From a virus (lineage: Duplodnaviria; Heunggongvirae; Uroviricota; Caudoviricetes): DNA of 8,623 bases. The translations under genes and the position numbers were made by a program. Below, piece by piece: positions 4,078-7,896 of this stretch. Under the pieces are notes generated by a model. The model worked only from the letters and a program-made list of their open reading frames with translations. It made no database searches and was not told where the DNA came from. The number at the start of each line of letters is the position of its first letter. The stretch's first letter is position 1. The stretch is taken from IMG/VR virus record IMGVR_UViG_3300029085_000036, one strand, 5' to 3'.

Positions 4078-4350
4078 ATGTCTCATACAATCCGTGATAA
4101 ACAGAAACTGAAAGCGCGTGCCAGTAAGATTCAGGGCCAGGTCGTGGCGCTCAAGAAAATGCTCGACGAACCGCATGAATGCGCTGCAGTTTTACAACAG
4201 ATTGCTGCTATCCGTGGCGCGGTAAACGGTCTGATGCGGGAAGTGATTAAAGGCCATCTGACGGAACACATCGTTCACCAGGGGGATGAGCTAAAACGTG
4301 AAGAAGATCTGGATGTCGTTCTGAAGGTGCTGGATTCTTATATCAAATAA
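4078..4350 (+). CDS. rcnR: Ni/Co-responsive transcriptional repressor RcnR (90 aa; CsoR/RcnR family)
   Basis: ORF of 90 aa ([38 protein letters not shown]...), divergent from rcnA across the G/C-tract operators. Recognised from memory as YohL/RcnR. Confidence 0.95.
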
Positions 4351-4439
4351 TTTCACAACGTTATTGTAATACCGCCGTTTTTCCCCGTTTACAACGCGTG
4401 CGCTGGACATTACCATCCTCCTCTGCGATTTATTATCGC

Positions 4440-4491
4440 AACCAAACGACTCGGGGTGCCCTTCTTTGTGAAGGCTGAGAAATACCCGTAT
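4440..4491 (+). ncRNA. TPP (THI-box) riboswitch aptamer, 5' portion only (thiM leader type), truncated at its 3' side
   Basis: Contains GGGGTGCCC...GGC, CTGAGA and ACCC elements in the order expected for the P2/P3/J3-2 part of a TPP aptamer. Matches the E. coli thiM leader as I remember it up to ...ATACCCGTAT. The expected continuation (CACCTGATCTGG... P4/P5 helix) and thiM are absent. Confidence 0.75.
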
Positions 4492-4522
4492 TTTCTCATT
4501 TAGTGTTTTTTGCGGTTCGGGG

Positions 4523-4604
4523 TTGTTCGTGGTTGTTTGCGTATGCATTTGATATTAAATATAATATTGCGTTTTCTTGTTTGTCATTGTTCGTCGTTGT
4601 TCGT
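4523..4604. repeat. Three copies of TTGTTCGT (4523-4530, 4587-4594, 4597-4604) plus the variant TTGTTTGCGT; candidate integrase arm-type binding sites
   Basis: Direct repeats read from the sequence, clustered between the junction and the int start codon. Their role as arm sites is inferred. Confidence 0.4.
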
Positions 4605-4620
4605 AGAGCTTCAACGAAAT

Positions 4621-4644
4621 GTGTGGTCAGTTGTGTGGTCAGTT
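4621..4644 (+). repeat. Perfect 12-bp tandem duplication GTGTGGTCAGTT x2, upstream of int
   Basis: GTGTGGTCAGTT at 4621-4632 and again at 4633-4644, identical. Lies 36 bp upstream of the int GTG start. Confidence 0.85.
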
Positions 4645-4679
4645 TTTTGAGGCTGGAGGACTGAAAAGAGGATCTGATA

Positions 4680-5900
4680 GTGGGAAAAGCACTAAACAAA
4701 CTGAGCGATTCGACGTTAAAAAAATTGGCGGCTGTCCAGGCAGAAAAAGAGCGTTTTTACTCCGACGGGGGCGGGCTGGAGATTAAACACTCAAAGGGCG
4801 GCAAATTAACCTGGTATTTCCGGTACCGAACAGGAGGACGTGAGGTTGCTGCTGAGCGGCTAAAGTTGGGGGCTTATCCTGAATTGTCGCTGAAAGCCGC
4901 AAGGGAAAAACGCACACAGTGCCGGTCATGGCTGGCAGAGGGTAAAAACCCCCGTTATGAGTTGTGCACCACAGTAAAGGAAGCACTAAAACCCGTTACG
5001 GTGAAGGAGGCGATTAACTACTGGCTGGAGGAATACGCGAAGGATAACCGCAAAGACTACATAAAGCTGGTGCAACGTATGGATAAGCACATCATTTGCC
5101 ATATAGGGGCAATTCCCCTTGATAAGTGTGATACAAGGCAGTGGATCGCATGTTTTGACCGTGTACGAAAAAAAGCACCAGTAGCAGCGGGGCACGTCAT
5201 GCAAACCTGCAAACAAGCGCTAAAGTTCTGCCGCAGGAGGCGCTACGCGTTCAGTAATGCCCTGGACGATTTGATCGTCAGCGATGTGGGTAAGAGAGCA
5301 GAAATTCGCGAGAGAGTGCACAGCAACAGCGAATTAAAGGAAATTTTACGCGCTATTGATGGTGATGTGTTCGCGCCTTACTACAGCGCGTTAATGCGCT
5401 TGCTGATTGTGTTCGGGTGCAGAACGGCAGAGGTCAGACTTTCAGAGATCAAAGAATGGGATCTGAAAGAAATGTTGTGGACAGTGCCAAAAGAGCACAG
5501 CAAAACGAAGGTAACGATATTCAGGCCAATACCCGATGGCATTTTGCCGTTCATTCAGAAGCTGGTGGAGCAGAACCGGCATACAGGGTTATTACTCGGA
5601 GAACTGAAAAAAGATACCACGGTAGCGCAATATGGGCGAAATGCGCATAAGCGGCTTAACCAGGAACACTGGACGCTGCATGACTTTCGCCACACGTTTA
5701 CAACGATGCTGAACGATTTAGGTGTCGATCCGCATATCGTGGAGCACATCACAGCGCATCAGATGCCTGGTCAGCAAAAAACCTATAACCATTCACGCTA
5801 TTTACAGGCGAAGCGGGACGCGTTGAATCTGTGGGTTGAGCGTCTCGATGTGCTGGCTGGAAATCATGAAAATATTGTTATGCTGAAGGTGGCTAAATGA
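4680..5900 (+). CDS. int: Tyrosine site-specific integrase, P4-like (406 aa), GTG start
   Basis: GTG at 4680 is the first canonical start after an in-frame stop at 4662-4664, with AAGAGGA 7 nt upstream. N-terminal arm-binding-type region (GGLEIKHSKGGKLTWYFRYR). C-terminal catalytic-type motifs (HDFRHTF, YNHSRY). Sits next to the junction with chromosomal sequence. Confidence 0.9.
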   Translation: MGKALNKLSDSTLKKLAAVQAEKERFYSDGGGLEIKHSKGGKLTWYFRYRTGGREVAAERLKLGAYPELSLKAAREKRTQCRSWLAEGKNPRYELCTTVKEALKPVTVKEAINYWLEEYAKDNRKDYIKLVQRMDKHIICHIGAIPLDKCDTRQWIACFDRVRKKAPVAAGHVMQTCKQALKFCRRRRYAFSNALDDLIVSDVGKRAEIRERVHSNSELKEILRAIDGDVFAPYYSALMRLLIVFGCRTAEVRLSEIKEWDLKEMLWTVPKEHSKTKVTIFRPIPDGILPFIQKLVEQNRHTGLLLGELKKDTTVAQYGRNAHKRLNQEHWTLHDFRHTFTTMLNDLGVDPHIVEHITAHQMPGQQKTYNHSRYLQAKRDALNLWVERLDVLAGNHENIVMLKVAK

Positions 5901-6616
5901 AATTACCTAAAAGACTCTATTATCCGTTACCTGAAGCGGCAGAAAAGTTAGGATGTACAATAAGGGATCTCTATCATTTCGCTAGTACAGGTGCCATTGA
6001 TATTTCTGTATTTATTCCTGAGCATAGTGTTGGGAACTGTGAGGTTTATTTTCTTGAGGGATTTAAAGATAATAAACGGAATGGACTAATATTCCAGGAC
6101 GGCAAAACAATTAATTTAGAGAAGAAAGTAGATGATAGATTATATATAGCAAATTTTATTGCTGGTTTTTTCTATGTAAACAAAAAGGCGTTCTCTGATA
6201 TTGAGTTTAAACATAATAACATCATAAGCTCACCAACATTATATTTTTACCCTGATAGACTTGGCGGTGGATTAGAAATAACTCCAGAAGGGGAAAATCT
6301 CAAGCCATTTGATATAGATGTTGATTATTTATGTGTGATGGCAGATGATTTAAATAATGTAAAAGATGAAGGTAGTTTTCGTAATCTTACAGAAGATAAC
6401 CCCAAAAGAGCAGCAAAAAGGAATGAGGTTATTTACTCTTTAATTAAACTTATTCCAGAAATGGGTGATGTAGACCTAGACACGGAATCATTACCTAAAA
6501 TAGCAGATTTAATTGATTCTATAGCTGCATCCAGAGGGATAGAATTTCCCAAAACACATTGGCAGACATGGCAAAAGTATTTGGGGCGTGAATCTCAACA
6601 AAAACGCAAAAAGTGA
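5897..6616 (+). CDS. Hypothetical 239-aa cargo protein with a possible N-terminal helix-turn-helix; AT-rich, family unrecognised
   Basis: ATG at 5897 overlaps the int stop (ATGA) and has a strong Shine-Dalgarno AAGGTGG 4 nt upstream. Visibly AT-rich compared with int and alpA. The N-terminus (LPEAAEKLGCTIRDLYHFASTGAI) resembles excisionase/AlpA-type HTH. The C-terminal ~190 aa match nothing I recognise. Confidence 0.65.
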   Translation: MKLPKRLYYPLPEAAEKLGCTIRDLYHFASTGAIDISVFIPEHSVGNCEVYFLEGFKDNKRNGLIFQDGKTINLEKKVDDRLYIANFIAGFFYVNKKAFSDIEFKHNNIISSPTLYFYPDRLGGGLEITPEGENLKPFDIDVDYLCVMADDLNNVKDEGSFRNLTEDNPKRAAKRNEVIYSLIKLIPEMGDVDLDTESLPKIADLIDSIAASRGIEFPKTHWQTWQKYLGRESQQKRKK

Positions 6617-6644
6617 TATCACGTGCTGGTAGTGTGATATCACA
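6612..6644. promoter_or_regulatory. Two copies of the perfect palindrome GTGATATCAC (second extended to GTGTGATATCACAC), 9 bp apart; candidate operator or hairpin upstream of alpA
   Basis: GTGATATCAC at 6612-6621 (overlapping the cargo stop codon) and GTGTGATATCACAC at 6631-6644. A TAGAAT -10-like hexamer lies at 6666-6671. Confidence 0.5.
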
Positions 6645-6707
6645 CAAACGGCGTTTTACCACCGCCTAGAATCGTCCTCGTTCGGCAACGTTCGGGGACG
6701 TTTTTTT

Positions 6708-6932
6708 ATGAATCAAAATACACAATTTCAATCACTATCAGATCGCGTAATCCGTGAGGATGAATGTCGTAAGTTAACAGGAGTGTGCCGCACTACACGC
6801 TATGAACTGGAGAAAAAAGGATGCTTTCCGTCACGTCTTAATCTGGGCGGTCGTTCTGTAGGTTGGCTGCTGTCCGAGGTTATGGAATGGGTTAAAAGCC
6901 GGGATCGCATTAATTCAGGCAAGGCAGCGTAA
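6708..6932 (+). CDS. alpA: AlpA-family phage regulatory protein / excisionase-like (74 aa)
   Basis: Small ORF with the characteristic AlpA/Vis-type pattern (...CRKLTGVCRTTRYELEKKGCFPSRLNLGGRSVGWLLSEVMEWV...). Lies downstream of int as in P4-like and CP4-57-like elements. Confidence 0.85.
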   Translation: MNQNTQFQSLSDRVIREDECRKLTGVCRTTRYELEKKGCFPSRLNLGGRSVGWLLSEVMEWVKSRDRINSGKAA

Positions 6933-6959
6933 AGGGGAGTATATGGCACATAAAACAAA

Positions 6960-6979
6960 GGCGACCGGGGGCGGTCGCC
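6960..6979 (-). terminator. Rho-independent terminator for the minus-strand small-gene pair
   Basis: Stem GGCGACC (6960-6966) / GGTCGCC (6973-6979) with a G-rich loop. On the minus strand it is followed by TTTGTTTTAT. No comparable U-tract on the plus strand. Confidence 0.55.
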
Positions 6980-7043
6980 AATGGGAATACACTAAACATA
7001 AGCCCAGCCATCATAGCGATTTGCTGGCTGGTGGGCAATGTGA

Positions 7044-7253
7044 TCAGCCTGGTGGGCGGTTCCTGTTAGCTTTCATTACCCGGGGCTGTTTATTGAGAAA
7101 CTCATCAAGCGCAAATTTTGTAGGCGCTGGTTCTGTATTTGGTGGCATTTGTTTAGCGTGTGTCTTTTCTTTCTGGCGTGCAACAATGCTCTGTAAAAGC
7201 AATCTTCGTTGTTCTGCGAAAATCTCTTCAGTGGATAGGTATTTTTTGCTCAT
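7044..7253 (-). CDS. Hypothetical small basic protein (69 aa)
   Basis: Minus-strand ORF (MSKKYLSTEEIFAEQRRLLLQSIVARQKEK...) directly downstream of the 59-aa gene and followed by the terminator at 6960-6979. Overlaps the implausible 317-aa plus-strand ORF, which I reject. Confidence 0.45.
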   Translation of the reverse strand: MSKKYLSTEEIFAEQRRLLLQSIVARQKEKTHAKQMPPNTEPAPTKFALDEFLNKQPRVMKANRNRPPG

Positions 7254-7310
7254 AGTGCCGACCTGTAAAGCAATGCGCCGGAGTACCTCACACCACAGCG
7301 CTGATAGTGA

Positions 7311-7490
7311 TTATTCTTGCTCTTTAGCCTTGCGTCGCTGGCGGTATTCAACTTCTCGCTTTAATGCTGCTGTTACAAACTGCCCTGTACTTTCACCAGG
7401 CATTTTTACCGCCTCAACATTGTTCATAACTTCATGCGGAACCCTTGCCGCAACTGTTTGTGATTTTGCGTTTACTGCTTTTGTCGCCAT
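7311..7490 (-). CDS. Small 59-aa protein, possibly a ribbon-helix-helix or YlcI/YnfO-like prophage regulator; not in the supplied ORF track
   Basis: Hand-translated from the reverse complement: MATKAVNAKSQTVAARVPHEVMNNVEAVKMPGESTGQFVTAALKREVEYRQRRKAKEQE, with stop TAA at 7311-7313. ATG at 7490 has GAGGGG about 8 nt upstream. Divergent from the early operon across the repeat-bearing control region. Family assignment is from memory. Confidence 0.5.
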   Translation of the reverse strand: MATKAVNAKSQTVAARVPHEVMNNVEAVKMPGESTGQFVTAALKREVEYRQRRKAKEQE

Positions 7491-7540
7491 GTTGTGTACC
7501 CCTCACAAAAAACAAATGCAGTATGCAGGAAAAAAAACAA

Positions 7541-7593
7541 GTGTTCAACACTTGACGTGTTCAACACCTGAGTTTAAATTGGTGTTCAACACC
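7541..7593. promoter_or_regulatory. Three copies of a dyad-symmetric 11-bp motif GTGTTCAACAC (7541-7551, 7557-7567, 7582-7592) in the divergent control region; candidate operators
   Basis: Exact repeats read from the sequence. Each is an inverted repeat GTGTT-C-AACAC. Overlaps promoter-like hexamers TTGACG (7552-7557) and TAAATT (7575-7580) on the plus strand, and TTGAAC/CATACT on the minus strand. Confidence 0.6.
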
Positions 7594-7689
7594 TTGTTGA
7601 TGCAAGGTGCAGAAACGACGAAACCCGGCAGTGCGCTAACACTAACCGGGCTTCTAACCACCAACGATAGCAAGAATATCGAGGTAGCT

Positions 7690-7896
7690 ATGAGAAATCA
7701 TACCACACACCCGCAAGGGCGGGACTCACACAACCTGAATAAATACATCTGGCGTTTTATTGCCCTGAGCACCGCACAACCGCGCGTGATTCACATTGAG
7801 GCCACCAGCGAACAGGAAGCACGCCAGCAATCCCCGGCTGGCTGCGTGATGGTATTTACTGCCCGTATTCGTCAGGGGGTGCGCCATGTGCAATAA
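7690..7896 (+). CDS. Small 68-aa protein, possibly Icd/Kil-like host cell division inhibitor; first gene of the island early operon
   Basis: Internal ATG at 7690 of the long track ORF, with GAGGT 4 nt upstream. Sequence pattern (...WRFIALSTAQPRVIHIEATSEQEARQQSPAGCVMVFTARIRQ) resembles Icd-like proteins of P4-like prophages as I recall them. Stop overlaps the start of the next gene. Confidence 0.45.
   Translation: MRNHTTHPQGRDSHNLNKYIWRFIALSTAQPRVIHIEATSEQEARQQSPAGCVMVFTARIRQGVRHVQ

What the first reader, a model, noticed from the sequence alone, without database searches (positions are those of the whole stretch)
5897..6616. AT-rich 239-aa cargo gene translationally coupled to the integrase: candidate undescribed accessory or defence function
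The gene sits in the variable int-to-alpA slot of a P4-like element. Its start overlaps the int stop (ATGA) and it has a strong Shine-Dalgarno (AAGGTGG), so it is probably co-expressed with int. Its base composition is conspicuously AT-rich compared with the flanking int and alpA, suggesting separate horizontal acquisition. The N-terminal ~40 aa look like an excisionase/AlpA-type HTH; the remaining ~190 aa resemble nothing I recognise. Variable loci of P4-like satellites are known hotspots for anti-phage systems, so a single-protein defence or abortive-infection effector with a DNA-binding N-terminus is a plausible hypothesis. An atypical large recombination directionality factor or regulator is the alternative.
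Basis: partly seen in the sequence, partly recalled or inferred. Interest (0 to 1): 0.75.

Follow-up and report, generated by a model that had tools for sequence, protein, structure and literature searches.

The report
Satellite regulator with its own operator
The AT-rich gene after the integrase belongs to an undescribed protein family of enterobacterial phage satellites that always comes with two palindromic DNA sites in front of the satellite's master switch gene alpA, so it is more likely a regulator of satellite induction than an anti-phage weapon.

Summary
A 239-aa ORF (5897-6616) overlaps the int stop (ATGA), follows AAGGTGG, and has 34% GC against 49% for int. The element is a 13.6-kb PICI-type satellite next to rcnR, not a P4 with sid/psu/delta.

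The protein ("X") has no Pfam, NCBIfam or PADLOC match. Only its first ~45 residues resemble a solved fold, the Xis/AlpA/MerR winged helix. An exhaustive profile search finds 532 relatives. Those that carry a name are "hypothetical", from Enterobacterales. In 18 of the 19 distinct loci examined, X sits directly between int and alpA; one viral-contig locus starts at X itself, so int could not be seen.

The new finding is a pair of 10-bp palindromes that starts at the X stop codon (GTGATATCAC, 6613-6622 and 6634-6643). The pair lies 60-64 nt before the alpA ATG. It is absent from sister elements with DUF6387 or nothing in the slot. The box sequence changes symmetrically between clades and tracks a helix in X's C-terminal domain.

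The middle domain is hypervariable, even within one backbone.

Best reading: X binds these boxes and gates alpA, possibly sensing the helper phage. A defence effector is not supported but not excluded.

The parts
4577..4646 (.). Left attachment-site repeat (attL) of the 13.6-kb satellite
   Evidence: A 70-nt direct repeat, 97% identical, lies 13,562 bp apart in the complete island of strain TUM1881 (L001 18681-18750 and 32243-32312). It was mapped to the window by the fixed offset between L001 and the window and read.
4680..5900 (+). int, P4-family tyrosine integrase (406 aa)
   Evidence: Pfam Arm-DNA-bind_3 5.5e-18 and Phage_integrase 5.1e-17. Its stop TGA 5898-5900 overlaps the start of X.
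5886..5892 (+). Shine-Dalgarno AAGGTGG for X, inside the end of int
   Evidence: Read directly from the sequence, 4 nt before the ATG. A similar AGGTGA precedes the Serratia homologue.
5897..6031 (+). X, residues 1-45: Xis/AlpA/MerR-type winged helix, the most conserved part of the family (YYPL..AA..L.C...D..H)
6032..6391 (+). X, residues 46-165: hypervariable beta-rich middle domain (31% GC)
6392..6616 (+). X, residues 166-239 plus stop: conserved helical C-terminal domain (SPKxAAKRxEVI ... TWxKYLGR, basic tail); candidate box-binding domain
   Evidence: Four helices, pLDDT 78-88. 94% identical among E. coli alleles that differ elsewhere. The motif of its first helix co-varies with the box sequence.
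6613..6622 (.). X-box 1, GTGATATCAC; it contains the X stop codon (TGA 6614-6616)
   Evidence: Conserved in position in every X locus that has the canonical C-terminus.
6634..6643 (.). X-box 2, GTGATATCAC, 21 bp centre-to-centre from box 1
   Evidence: It is the only tandem palindrome pair with at most one mismatch in each X-bearing locus (8.6-40 kb) where the scan found a pair; it missed the more diverged Klebsiella and L025 second boxes. The spacer sequence is free and the spacing is fixed.
6667..6672 (+). AT-rich hexamer TAGAAT: either the -10 of the alpA promoter or the A-tract of the leader terminator
   Evidence: A similar hexamer (CAATAT, CAAAAT, TTAAAT, TACAAT) lies 22-23 nt after box 2 in the lineages read by eye. 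No -35-like hexamer follows box 2. Its function is inferred, not shown.
6673..6707 (+). alpA leader hairpin (CGTCCTCG...CGGGGACG) plus T7 run abutting the alpA ATG; the alpA Shine-Dalgarno lies in the 3' arm
   Evidence: RNA fold -38.6 kcal/mol for 6600-6715, z = -3.8. Compensatory changes in 4 of 8 pairs across 10 lineages.
6708..6932 (+). alpA, master activator of Gram-negative PICIs (74 aa)
   Evidence: PF05930 1.1e-15; phrog_2790 excisionase/transcriptional regulator 2.2e-17. Its role is taken from PMC6092414.

Best explanation
X is the founding example of an undescribed family of satellite-encoded, sequence-specific DNA-binding regulators. It is made at a low constitutive level together with the integrase (ATGA coupling; inferred). 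It binds, probably as dimers and through its conserved C-terminal helical domain, to the two 10-bp palindromes (X-boxes) that begin at its own stop codon (inferred from co-occurrence and co-variation). From there it gates expression of alpA, the master activator of the island, whose start codon lies a fixed 60-64 nt downstream behind a terminator-like hairpin. The sign of the control is not resolved. If the AT-rich hexamer is the -10, the boxes sit at about -40 and -61 of a promoter with no -35, which are activator-like positions. Otherwise X could act on read-through at the hairpin. The hypervariable beta domain, with the N-terminal Xis-like winged helix, is proposed to be the input module. 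It may recognise a helper-phage product, which would make X a functional analogue of the Stl repressors of Gram-positive PICIs (speculative).
For: (1) Fixed position. X lies directly after int (ATGA overlap, 8-bp overlap or 4-nt gap) and before alpA in 18 of the 19 distinct X loci compared; the 19th (L026) starts at X, so int was not seen. They come from Escherichia, Salmonella, Klebsiella, Citrobacter, Trabulsiella, Serratia, a Dickeya-type protein and metagenomes. Integrases are down to about 50% identical and AlpA down to 54%.
(2) The boxes belong to X. A tandem pair of 10-bp palindromes 20-22 bp apart lies just after X, starting at its stop codon in the canonical clade, in every lineage except the Serratia type. 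It is the only pair with at most one mismatch in each locus where the scan found a pair.
(3) The pair is absent from elements with DUF6387 or an empty slot, although their AlpA is 90% and their Int 96% identical to X-bearing ones. The boxes therefore go with X, not with AlpA or Int.
(4) Selection acts on the boxes and on spacing, not on the spacer. Nine X-linked pairs in viral contigs all have an 11-nt spacer, with 7 different spacer sequences. The distance from box 2 to the alpA ATG is 62 nt in 14 of 16 lineages (60 and 64 in the others), across otherwise unconserved sequence.
(5) The boxes change symmetrically between clades: GTGATATCAC, GGGAATTCCC/GGAATTTCC and GTAATATTAC. Each copy stays self-palindromic, as expected for a dimeric protein's site and not required for an RNA stem.
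(6) Box type tracks the first helix of the C-terminal domain. The AKK/RxE motif goes with GTGAWWTCAC in 11 of the 13 loci tabulated (L038 and L039 depart from it) and in all 5 read, four of them new and predicted beforehand. QAA goes with GGAAWTTCC in 2 independent lineages. QARVI goes with GTAATATTAC in 2 lineages. The N-terminal helix is identical in proteins with different boxes (window versus L012) and very different in proteins with the same boxes (L009, L034).
(7) Mosaic evolution. The same backbone (int 96-100% identical, alpA 92-100%) carries three X alleles. The ends are 94-98% identical and the middle 20-30%. A distant clade shows the same pattern.
(8) The literature states that no repressor or sensor is known for Gram-negative PICIs and that alpA induction by helpers is unexplained (PMC6092414; PMC11773190).
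Against: No binding, expression or phenotype data exist; everything is comparative. The only domain with a recognised DNA-binding fold is the N-terminal one, yet co-variation points to the C-terminal domain, whose fold matched nothing. That co-variation rests on three box classes, two of them with only two lineages each. Two GTGATATCAC loci do not carry the AKK/RxE motif exactly (L038 AATKSAII, L039 AKKEKII). Within the GTGATATCAC class the C-terminal 'TW.KYLGR' helix varies without any change of box. Most related PICIs lack X and are still helper-inducible, including the studied EcCICFT073, where alpA appears to be the second ORF. X therefore cannot be a universal requirement. The Serratia-type relatives have no boxes. 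The AT-rich hexamer could simply be the A-tract of a terminator, so the promoter geometry is uncertain. A sensor role for the middle domain is analogy only.
Confidence: 0.45

Rival explanations
1. X is an accessory anti-phage (defence, abortive-infection or helper-interference) protein carried as cargo in a satellite hotspot. The boxes would then be incidental, or would only regulate X's own module.
For: The int-to-regulator interval is a recognised place for accessory genes in PICIs (PMC10085698; PMC6092414). The slot is polymorphic: X alleles, DUF6387 or empty. X is present in a minority of E. coli (55 of 5,426 complete genomes for the close alleles). Hypervariability of one domain is typical of proteins in conflict with phages. 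Satellite regulators can double as immunity proteins (Stl2, abstract of PMC11846896).
Against: There are no PADLOC hits and no nuclease, NTPase, TIR/SIR2, transmembrane or toxin-like domain by Pfam, NCBIfam or fold search. One homologous family holds the same position across deeply diverged PICI backbones, whereas hotspots usually hold unrelated systems. The fixed geometry between the boxes and the alpA start is hard to explain for a free-standing effector. DefenseFinder models and the Cell 2022 PICI-defence paper could not be consulted.
Confidence: 0.17
2. X is an integrase accessory protein, such as an atypical large recombination directionality factor or integration cofactor, acting at the att sites through its Xis-like N-terminus.
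Against: AlpA already provides the excision and induction function in these islands (PMC6092414; PMC11773190). Sister islands with 95-96% identical integrases lack X. The only conserved cis-element linked to X lies about 2 kb from the att core and next to alpA. No X-box-like sequence occurs near attL, in 4350-4680.
Confidence: 0.1
3. The paired palindromes are an RNA element, a 3' stem-loop that ends or stabilises the int-X transcript. They say nothing about what X does, so X's function stays open.
For: Because each box is self-complementary, the two copies can also pair with each other: a 10-bp stem with an 11-nt loop in the predicted fold of 6600-6715. In the distant E. coli clade box 1 is embedded in a GC-clamped hairpin followed by T6 (L030). 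In variant lineages the inter-copy pairing (7-9 of 10) is about as good as the self-symmetry.
Against: An RNA stem does not need each arm to be a palindrome, yet all three sequence classes keep that property. Most lineages have no U-run after box 2. The box class co-varies with residues of X. A strong terminator-like hairpin already follows 30 nt downstream.
Confidence: 0.13

Closest known systems
Stl / Rpr master repressors of SaPIs and other Gram-positive PICIs
   Same: Both are encoded next to int in a phage satellite. Both are modular: a DNA-binding part plus a highly divergent part. In Stl the divergent part binds a helper-phage protein, and different alleles couple the island to different helpers (PMC6092414). 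X likewise has conserved ends, a hypervariable middle, and a cognate site in front of the island's master regulatory gene.
   Different: No sequence or fold relationship was detected. X is co-directional with int and translationally coupled to it, rather than divergently transcribed. Its recognisable DNA-binding fold is Xis/MerR-type. The box positions suggest activation as readily as repression. X is absent from most Gram-negative PICIs.
AlpA / Vis / Xis family (Pfam PF05930 Phage_AlpA, PF12728 HTH_17)
   Different: X does not match PF05930 or PF12728, even at E = 1. Only 2 of 143 relatives touch HTH_17. X is 3-4 times longer, with two further domains. A bona fide AlpA is encoded immediately downstream.
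MerR-family regulators (including minimal members TnrA/GlnR, BldC, CvkR)
   Different: No Pfam MerR match. The model shows no long dimerisation helix after the wing. The boxes lie upstream of the putative core promoter, not in the spacer between -35 and -10. Box specificity tracks the C-terminal domain rather than the winged helix.
Defence hotspots of phage satellites (P4 psu-int hotspot; PICI accessory regions)
   Same: A polymorphic, AT-rich locus beside the integrase of a satellite, with alternative occupants. Accessory genes are reported there (PMC10085698).
   Different: The occupant here is one old family that co-diverges with the element and is wired to alpA. It has no match to known defence proteins in PADLOC.
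DUF6387 (PF19924)
   Same: It occupies exactly the same slot in a 96%-identical int backbone, also with an ATGA overlap and a similar GC (33.6%).
   Different: It is unrelated in sequence, it has no X-boxes, and it brings a different sequence upstream of the alpA hairpin.

Membership tests
Phage-inducible chromosomal island (Gram-negative PICI), for the element | int at one end, followed co-directionally by alpA and a primase/replicase | tested here: met
   int and alpA are in the window. A DUF927 primase lies downstream in the complete island of TUM1881.
Phage-inducible chromosomal island (Gram-negative PICI), for the element | Size of about 10-18 kb, flanked by att direct repeats, with no tail or lysis genes | tested here: met
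   70-nt repeats lie 13,562 bp apart. No structural or lysis genes are annotated in L001. Related elements are cf-PICIs with capsid genes only.
Phage-inducible chromosomal island (Gram-negative PICI), for the element | Induction, packaging and transfer by a helper phage | not testable with these tools
   This needs experiments.
P4-like satellite, for the element | psu-delta-sid capsid-hijacking operon, epsilon/ash and alpha primase (PMC10085698) | tested here: not met
   None of Psu, Delta or Sid is annotated in the full island. Only int, alpA, an Icd-like gene and a primase are shared. The island ORFs were not scanned with dedicated HMMs.
AlpA / excisionase HTH (PF05930, PF12728), for protein X | Match to the family profile above its threshold | tested here: not met
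   No Pfam family at E <= 1 for X. HTH_17 is hit by 2 of 143 relatives.
AlpA / excisionase HTH (PF05930, PF12728), for protein X | Small (50-90 aa) single-domain winged-helix protein | tested here: not met
   X is 239 aa with three domains. Only residues 8-40 share the fold.
MerR family, for protein X | MerR-type HTH profile plus a coiled-coil dimerisation helix | tested here: not met
Known anti-phage defence proteins, for protein X | Match to a model of a known or candidate defence system | tested here: not met
   PADLOC-DB 2.0.0 gives no hit at E <= 1 for X or its neighbours. DefenseFinder models, including the PICI-derived 'FS_' systems, were not available.
Known anti-phage defence proteins, for protein X | Protection against phage when expressed | not testable with these tools
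   This needs plaque or EOP assays.
Stl-like satellite master regulator (functional class), for protein X | Binds operators that control the island's regulatory gene | tested here: inconclusive
   A cognate tandem palindrome pair lies at a fixed distance from alpA, co-occurs with X and co-varies with X. Binding itself was not tested.
Stl-like satellite master regulator (functional class), for protein X | Activity switched by binding a helper-phage protein | not testable with these tools
   The only indirect hint is the hypervariable middle domain.
Stl-like satellite master regulator (functional class), for protein X | Sequence or fold homology to Stl/CI-type repressors | tested here: not met
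   No HTH_3/XRE or other Pfam hit. No such fold match.

The most novel reading that the evidence does not exclude
X is the missing helper-phage sensor of a subset of Gram-negative PICIs. It would be a constitutively made, box-bound switch at the alpA control region. Its hypervariable beta domain would recognise a helper-phage protein and thereby decide which phages can induce the island. That would be an independently evolved counterpart of Stl, built from two previously unseen folds, and it could also act as an infection-triggered interference device.
Probability: 0.25. Interest if true: 0.85.

Novelty: new variant of a known kind. Interest (0 to 1): 0.64.

Why it matters
How Gram-negative PICIs sense their helper phage is an acknowledged open question. 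The founding paper states that no global repressor is evident, that alpA is switched on by the helper in an unknown way, and that the inducer was still being sought (PMC6092414). A 2025 study again reports helper-dependent alpA induction without a mechanism (PMC11773190).

This finding offers a concrete, testable protein-DNA pair placed exactly at that control point. It also offers natural allelic series, with the same backbone and different middle domains, that are ready-made specificity-swap experiments.

It adds an unannotated family of more than 500 sequence clusters to the satellite "integration zone", with two domains of unknown fold. It also cautions against reading every AT-rich polymorphic gene in a satellite hotspot as a defence system.

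Tried and rejected
Sequence and fold searches that gave nothing useful:
- Pfam, NCBIfam, PADLOC and PHROGs on X returned nothing, apart from a weak phrog_13283 hit over the N-terminal 47 aa (E = 0.02).
- phmmer against PDB returned nothing.
- A profile of the C-terminal domain against PDB gave a marginal hit to a FusB-type protein (E = 0.0066 over 46 residues) and a weak hit to the ribbon-helix-helix protein ORF56 (E = 0.53). I considered an RHH fold and rejected it, because the stretch that would form the DNA-contacting strand is strongly acidic (DVDLD) across the family.
- Pfam and PHROGs on 143 relatives gave only HTH_17 in 2 members and phrog_13283 in 9.
- Rfam found no family in the window.
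- tblastn of X against 50,697 GenBank phage records found no match.

Searches that fell short:
- GTDB species representatives yielded only one locus.
- A diverse alignment could not seed a viral-contig scan.
- The Cell 2022 paper on PICI-encoded immunity is not held, so I could not check whether a relative was tested there.

Readings considered and dropped:
- Scanning viral contigs for tandem GTGATATCAC also returned about 50 unrelated hits: iteron-like arrays in ~40% GC phages, coding repeats and high-GC phages. A tandem pair alone is therefore not diagnostic. The diagnostic features are the X linkage, the 11-nt spacer and the position at the stop codon.
- AlpA as the box-binding protein was rejected, because 90%-identical AlpA alleles occur with and without boxes.
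- The boxes as Int arm sites was rejected on distance from the att core.
- A simple correlation between the box sequence and the C-terminal 'TW.KYLGR' helix was tested and failed (L036).
Full report
**1. Where we are**

The window is Escherichia coli chromosome: yehB'-yehA-rcnB-rcnA-rcnR. An island begins just after rcnR. In strain TUM1881, which carries the same island, it runs from rcnR to thiM. It is flanked by a 70-nt direct repeat 13,562 bp apart. The left copy is window 4577-4646.

The gene order in TUM1881 is int, X, alpA, a small reverse gene, an Icd-like gene, several small ORFs, DUF4222, a DUF927 primase, SSB, ProQ/FinO, PerC and DUF1441. Iteron-like repeats follow the primase. No Psu, Sid or Delta and no tail or lysis genes are annotated. 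This is the organisation of Gram-negative phage-inducible chromosomal islands (PICIs), described in PMC6092414 and PMC10111431. It is "P4-like" only in having a P4-family integrase, alpA, icd and a primase. No tRNA gene is present and no Rfam family matches.

**2.

- The ORF at 5897-6616 encodes 239 aa.
- Its ATG overlaps the int stop as ATGA, and AAGGTGG lies 4 nt upstream.
- GC is 33.9% (GC3 23.8%), against 49.1% for int (GC3 55.4%) and 45.8% for alpA.
- The neighbours are a P4-type integrase and a true AlpA.

**3. The protein**

X matches nothing in Pfam, NCBIfam or PADLOC. In PHROGs it gives only a weak N-terminal hit. It matches nothing in PDB by sequence.

An AlphaFold2 model built on 23 homologues has mean pLDDT 84. 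It shows three parts:
- a winged helix (residues 8-40);
- a beta-rich domain (about 48-148) ending in a helix;
- a disordered linker (160-166) and a four-helix C-terminal domain (169-237).

**4. The family**

A word-indexed search found 24 clusters, the named ones all from Enterobacterales. The exhaustive profile search found 532 representatives at E <= 1e-3, of which 120 are at E <= 1e-10. Of 143 scanned, two touch HTH_17 and none touches any other Pfam family. Every source name seen is "hypothetical protein". The named sources are Escherichia, Salmonella, Klebsiella, Citrobacter, Trabulsiella, an unnamed Enterobacterales bacterium, Dickeya, Providencia and Pluralibacter, and the same protein is encoded in a Serratia genome. 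No homologue occurs in 50,697 GenBank phage records.

**5. Position**

I compared 19 distinct X loci in detail. In 18 of them the family member lies directly after a P4-type integrase, with an ATGA or 8-bp overlap or a 4-nt gap. The 19th, viral contig L026, starts at X, so its upstream side could not be seen. In all 19 it lies directly before alpA or an AlpA-like gene, inside a PICI or capsid-forming PICI. This holds although the integrases are only about 50% identical and the attachment sites differ: the rcnR-thiM interval, cspD-clpS, next to a TetR-family regulator and RND efflux genes, near mug, and others. X diverges roughly in step with Int and AlpA. For example, in Klebsiella X is 42% identical, Int 52% and AlpA 63%. 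This fits an old resident of this satellite lineage better than a recently captured cargo.

Slot genes are AT-rich in all ten loci tabulated (nine X loci and the DUF6387 locus), 7-17 GC points below int. The composition is therefore a family trait and not evidence of recent import.

**6. The slot is nevertheless polymorphic**

Close X alleles occur in 55 of 5,426 complete E. coli genomes. Related alpA/int backbones occur in 643. Many of these have an empty 410-420-bp int-alpA spacer. Others have a DUF6387 gene, which is also ATGA-coupled to int.

Within one backbone (int 96-100% identical, alpA 92-100%) I found three X alleles and DUF6387. The breakpoints fall at the int stop on the left. On the right they fall inside the C-terminal coding region, at the boxes, or at the alpA leader.

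**7. Mosaic structure**

Between the window allele and the O157:H7 allele, DNA identity is 98% over the first 20 codons. It falls to 18-43% in the middle and returns to 98% over the last 60 codons. At protein level the N-terminal part is 75% identical, the middle 27% and the C-terminal part 94%. A distant E. coli/Salmonella clade (298-308 aa) shows the same pattern. A hypervariable middle between conserved ends is what one expects of a specificity determinant.

**8. The new element: X-boxes**

The X stop codon is part of GTGATATCAC (6613-6622). An identical copy follows at 6634-6643. Every X locus with a canonical C-terminus has such a pair, 20-22 bp centre to centre, starting at or within a few bases of the stop codon:
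- GTGATATCAC twice in E. coli, Salmonella and several metagenomic lineages;
- GTGAATTCAC plus GTGATATCCC in Klebsiella;
- GTGATATCAC plus GTGATTTCAC in Citrobacter;
- GTGAAATCAC plus GTGAAATCGC in L025;
- GTGAACTCCC plus GGGAATTCCC in Trabulsiella;
- GGAATTTCC plus GGAAATTACC in L037;
- GTAATATTAC-type pairs in the distant clade, 25-33 nt after the stop codon rather than at it.

It is the only tandem palindrome pair with at most one mismatch in each locus (8.6-40 kb) where the scan found a pair. Looser two-mismatch pairs elsewhere (in rcnA, for instance) are chance, and the scan missed the diverged Klebsiella and L025 second boxes. The pair is absent from the DUF6387 and empty-slot elements, even though their AlpA (90%) and Int (96%) are near-identical to those of X-bearing elements. 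Only the Serratia-type relatives, which have a different C-terminus and a 53-nt X-alpA spacer, lack boxes.

**9. Evidence that the boxes are a protein site belonging to X**

(a) The spacer is free and the spacing is fixed. Nine X-linked pairs in IMG/VR all have 11-nt spacers, with seven different sequences.

(b) The changes between clades are symmetric (G3/C8 to A3/T8, T2/A9 to G2/C9). Each copy therefore stays a palindrome. A dimeric protein requires this and an RNA stem does not.

(c) Box class follows the first helix of the C-terminal domain:
- [ST]xAK(K/R)xE(L/I/V)I goes with GTGAWWTCAC. It is present in 11 of the 13 such loci tabulated; L038 (AATKSAII) and L039 (AKKEKII) depart from it. 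It is also present in all five loci read, four of them new lineages where I predicted the motif from the box before reading the protein.
- (K/N)QAA(F/L)I goes with GGAAWTTCC, in two lineages whose C-termini are otherwise dissimilar.
- (L/A)QARVI goes with GTAATATTAC, in two lineages.

The N-terminal recognition helix does not follow box class. It is identical (TIRDLYH) in the window and in the Trabulsiella protein, which have different boxes. It is very different in L009 and L034, which share the window's boxes.

(d) The distance from box 2 to the alpA ATG is 62 nt in 14 of 16 lineages, and 60 or 64 in the other two. The intervening sequence is unconserved apart from a hairpin.

**10. The alpA leader**

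Directly before the alpA ATG lies a GC-rich hairpin followed by a T-run (6673-6707). The alpA Shine-Dalgarno lies in its 3' arm. The fold is far better than shuffled sequence (z = -3.8). Four of eight pairs show compensatory changes across ten lineages, including the DUF6387 element.

Just upstream of the hairpin is an AT-rich hexamer (TAGAAT here; CAATAT, CAAAAT or TTAAAT elsewhere), and no -35 is recognisable. There are two readings:
- If the hexamer is a -10, transcription would start inside the 5' arm. It would then escape both termination and Shine-Dalgarno sequestration. The boxes would be centred near -40 and -61, which are classical activator positions.
- The hexamer may instead be only the A-tract of a bidirectional terminator. 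In that case alpA would depend on read-through from int-X, and X could act on that.

I cannot decide between these, so the sign of regulation remains open.

**11. Model**

X is co-translated with Int in the quiescent island (inferred). It occupies the two X-boxes through its C-terminal domain (inferred from co-variation). It gates alpA, which the literature shows to be the helper-dependent master activator needed for excision, replication and transfer (PMC6092414; PMC11773190). The hypervariable beta domain, perhaps together with the highly conserved Xis-like N-domain, would be the input. By analogy with Stl that input could be a helper-phage product (speculative).

X is not essential to PICI biology in general, because most relatives lack it. 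It is better seen as an optional control module that replaces the long int-alpA regulatory spacer of other PICIs.

**12. Rivals**

- A defence effector remains possible. The slot is known for accessory genes, the locus is polymorphic and one domain is hypervariable. However, nothing in the protein looks like an effector, PADLOC is silent, and the wiring to alpA is left unexplained.
- An RDF or Int cofactor fits the N-terminal fold and the coupling to int. It does not fit the location of the only linked cis-element, nor the dispensability of X in sister islands.
- The boxes could be an RNA 3' stem-loop. That fails to explain the self-symmetry of each copy and the co-variation with the protein.

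**13. Verdict**

X is an undescribed family, best explained as a satellite regulator with its own operator at the alpA control region. I rate it a new variant of a known kind (satellite master-switch regulators), and it bears directly on the open question of how Gram-negative PICIs are induced. All functional statements are inferences from comparative sequence analysis. Binding, regulation and sensing remain to be tested.

Noticed in passing
window 6673-6707 (and the same place in L003, L006, L008, L011, L012, L025, L026, L033): A conserved terminator-like hairpin plus T-run abuts the alpA start codon, with the alpA Shine-Dalgarno in its 3' arm. Four of its 8 pairs show compensatory changes. 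It is also present in PICIs without X, so it is a general feature of alpA control (termination or translation gating) that I did not find described.
   Followed up: partly
L003 9798-10652: A DUF6387 protein (284 aa, 33.6% GC) occupies the same slot in a 96%-identical int backbone. It is also ATGA-coupled to int, is unrelated to X, and brings a different sequence upstream of the alpA hairpin. It is a second uncharacterised slot family.
   Followed up: partly
window 5954-5977 (X residues C20, D24, H27): Cys20, Asp24 and His27 lie at i, i+4, i+7 on the second helix of the winged helix. They are invariant in the 23-sequence alignment, and H27 is nearly invariant in 143 sequences. This could be a metal-binding or interface triad rather than DNA-contact residues.
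   Followed up: no
L001 25084-25237 and 31666-31732: Arrays of TGCGGGTTAT / TAACCCGCAAA repeats lie just downstream of the DUF927 primase, and again near the right end of the island. They are probably the replication-origin iterons of the satellite.
   Followed up: no
L003 14862-15575 (-); L006 16438-16711 (-): A HEPN-domain gene lies between the primase and the capsid gene of one E. coli cf-PICI. An Abi_C-domain gene lies at the far end of a Klebsiella cf-PICI locus. These are better candidates for satellite-borne defence cargo than X.
   Followed up: no
L040 about 4500-4600 and about 40 similar IMG/VR contigs (35-60 kb, about 40% GC): A group of unrelated phage contigs carries dense arrays of TGATATCA(C/T) repeats, including GTGATATCAC-N12-GTGATATCAC. 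They look like iterons or operator arrays of another phage family. No X homologue is nearby.
   Followed up: partly
window 6943-7896 (+): A 317-aa ORF here overlaps the YlcI/YnfO-family gene on the other strand (7311-7490). It has no family match and is probably spurious. From about window 7050 onward the window also differs from strain TUM1881, so the region downstream of alpA is a second variable zone.
   Followed up: no
L002 (E. coli O157:H7, cspD-clpS): The O157:H7 element that carries the 257-aa X allele looks decayed. It has pseudogenes after icd, and only terS and a capsid gene remain of a packaging module. The allele is nevertheless conserved in the 24 O157:H7, O103:H2 and related genomes listed, out of 49 carrying partial matches of at least 90% identity.
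   Followed up: no
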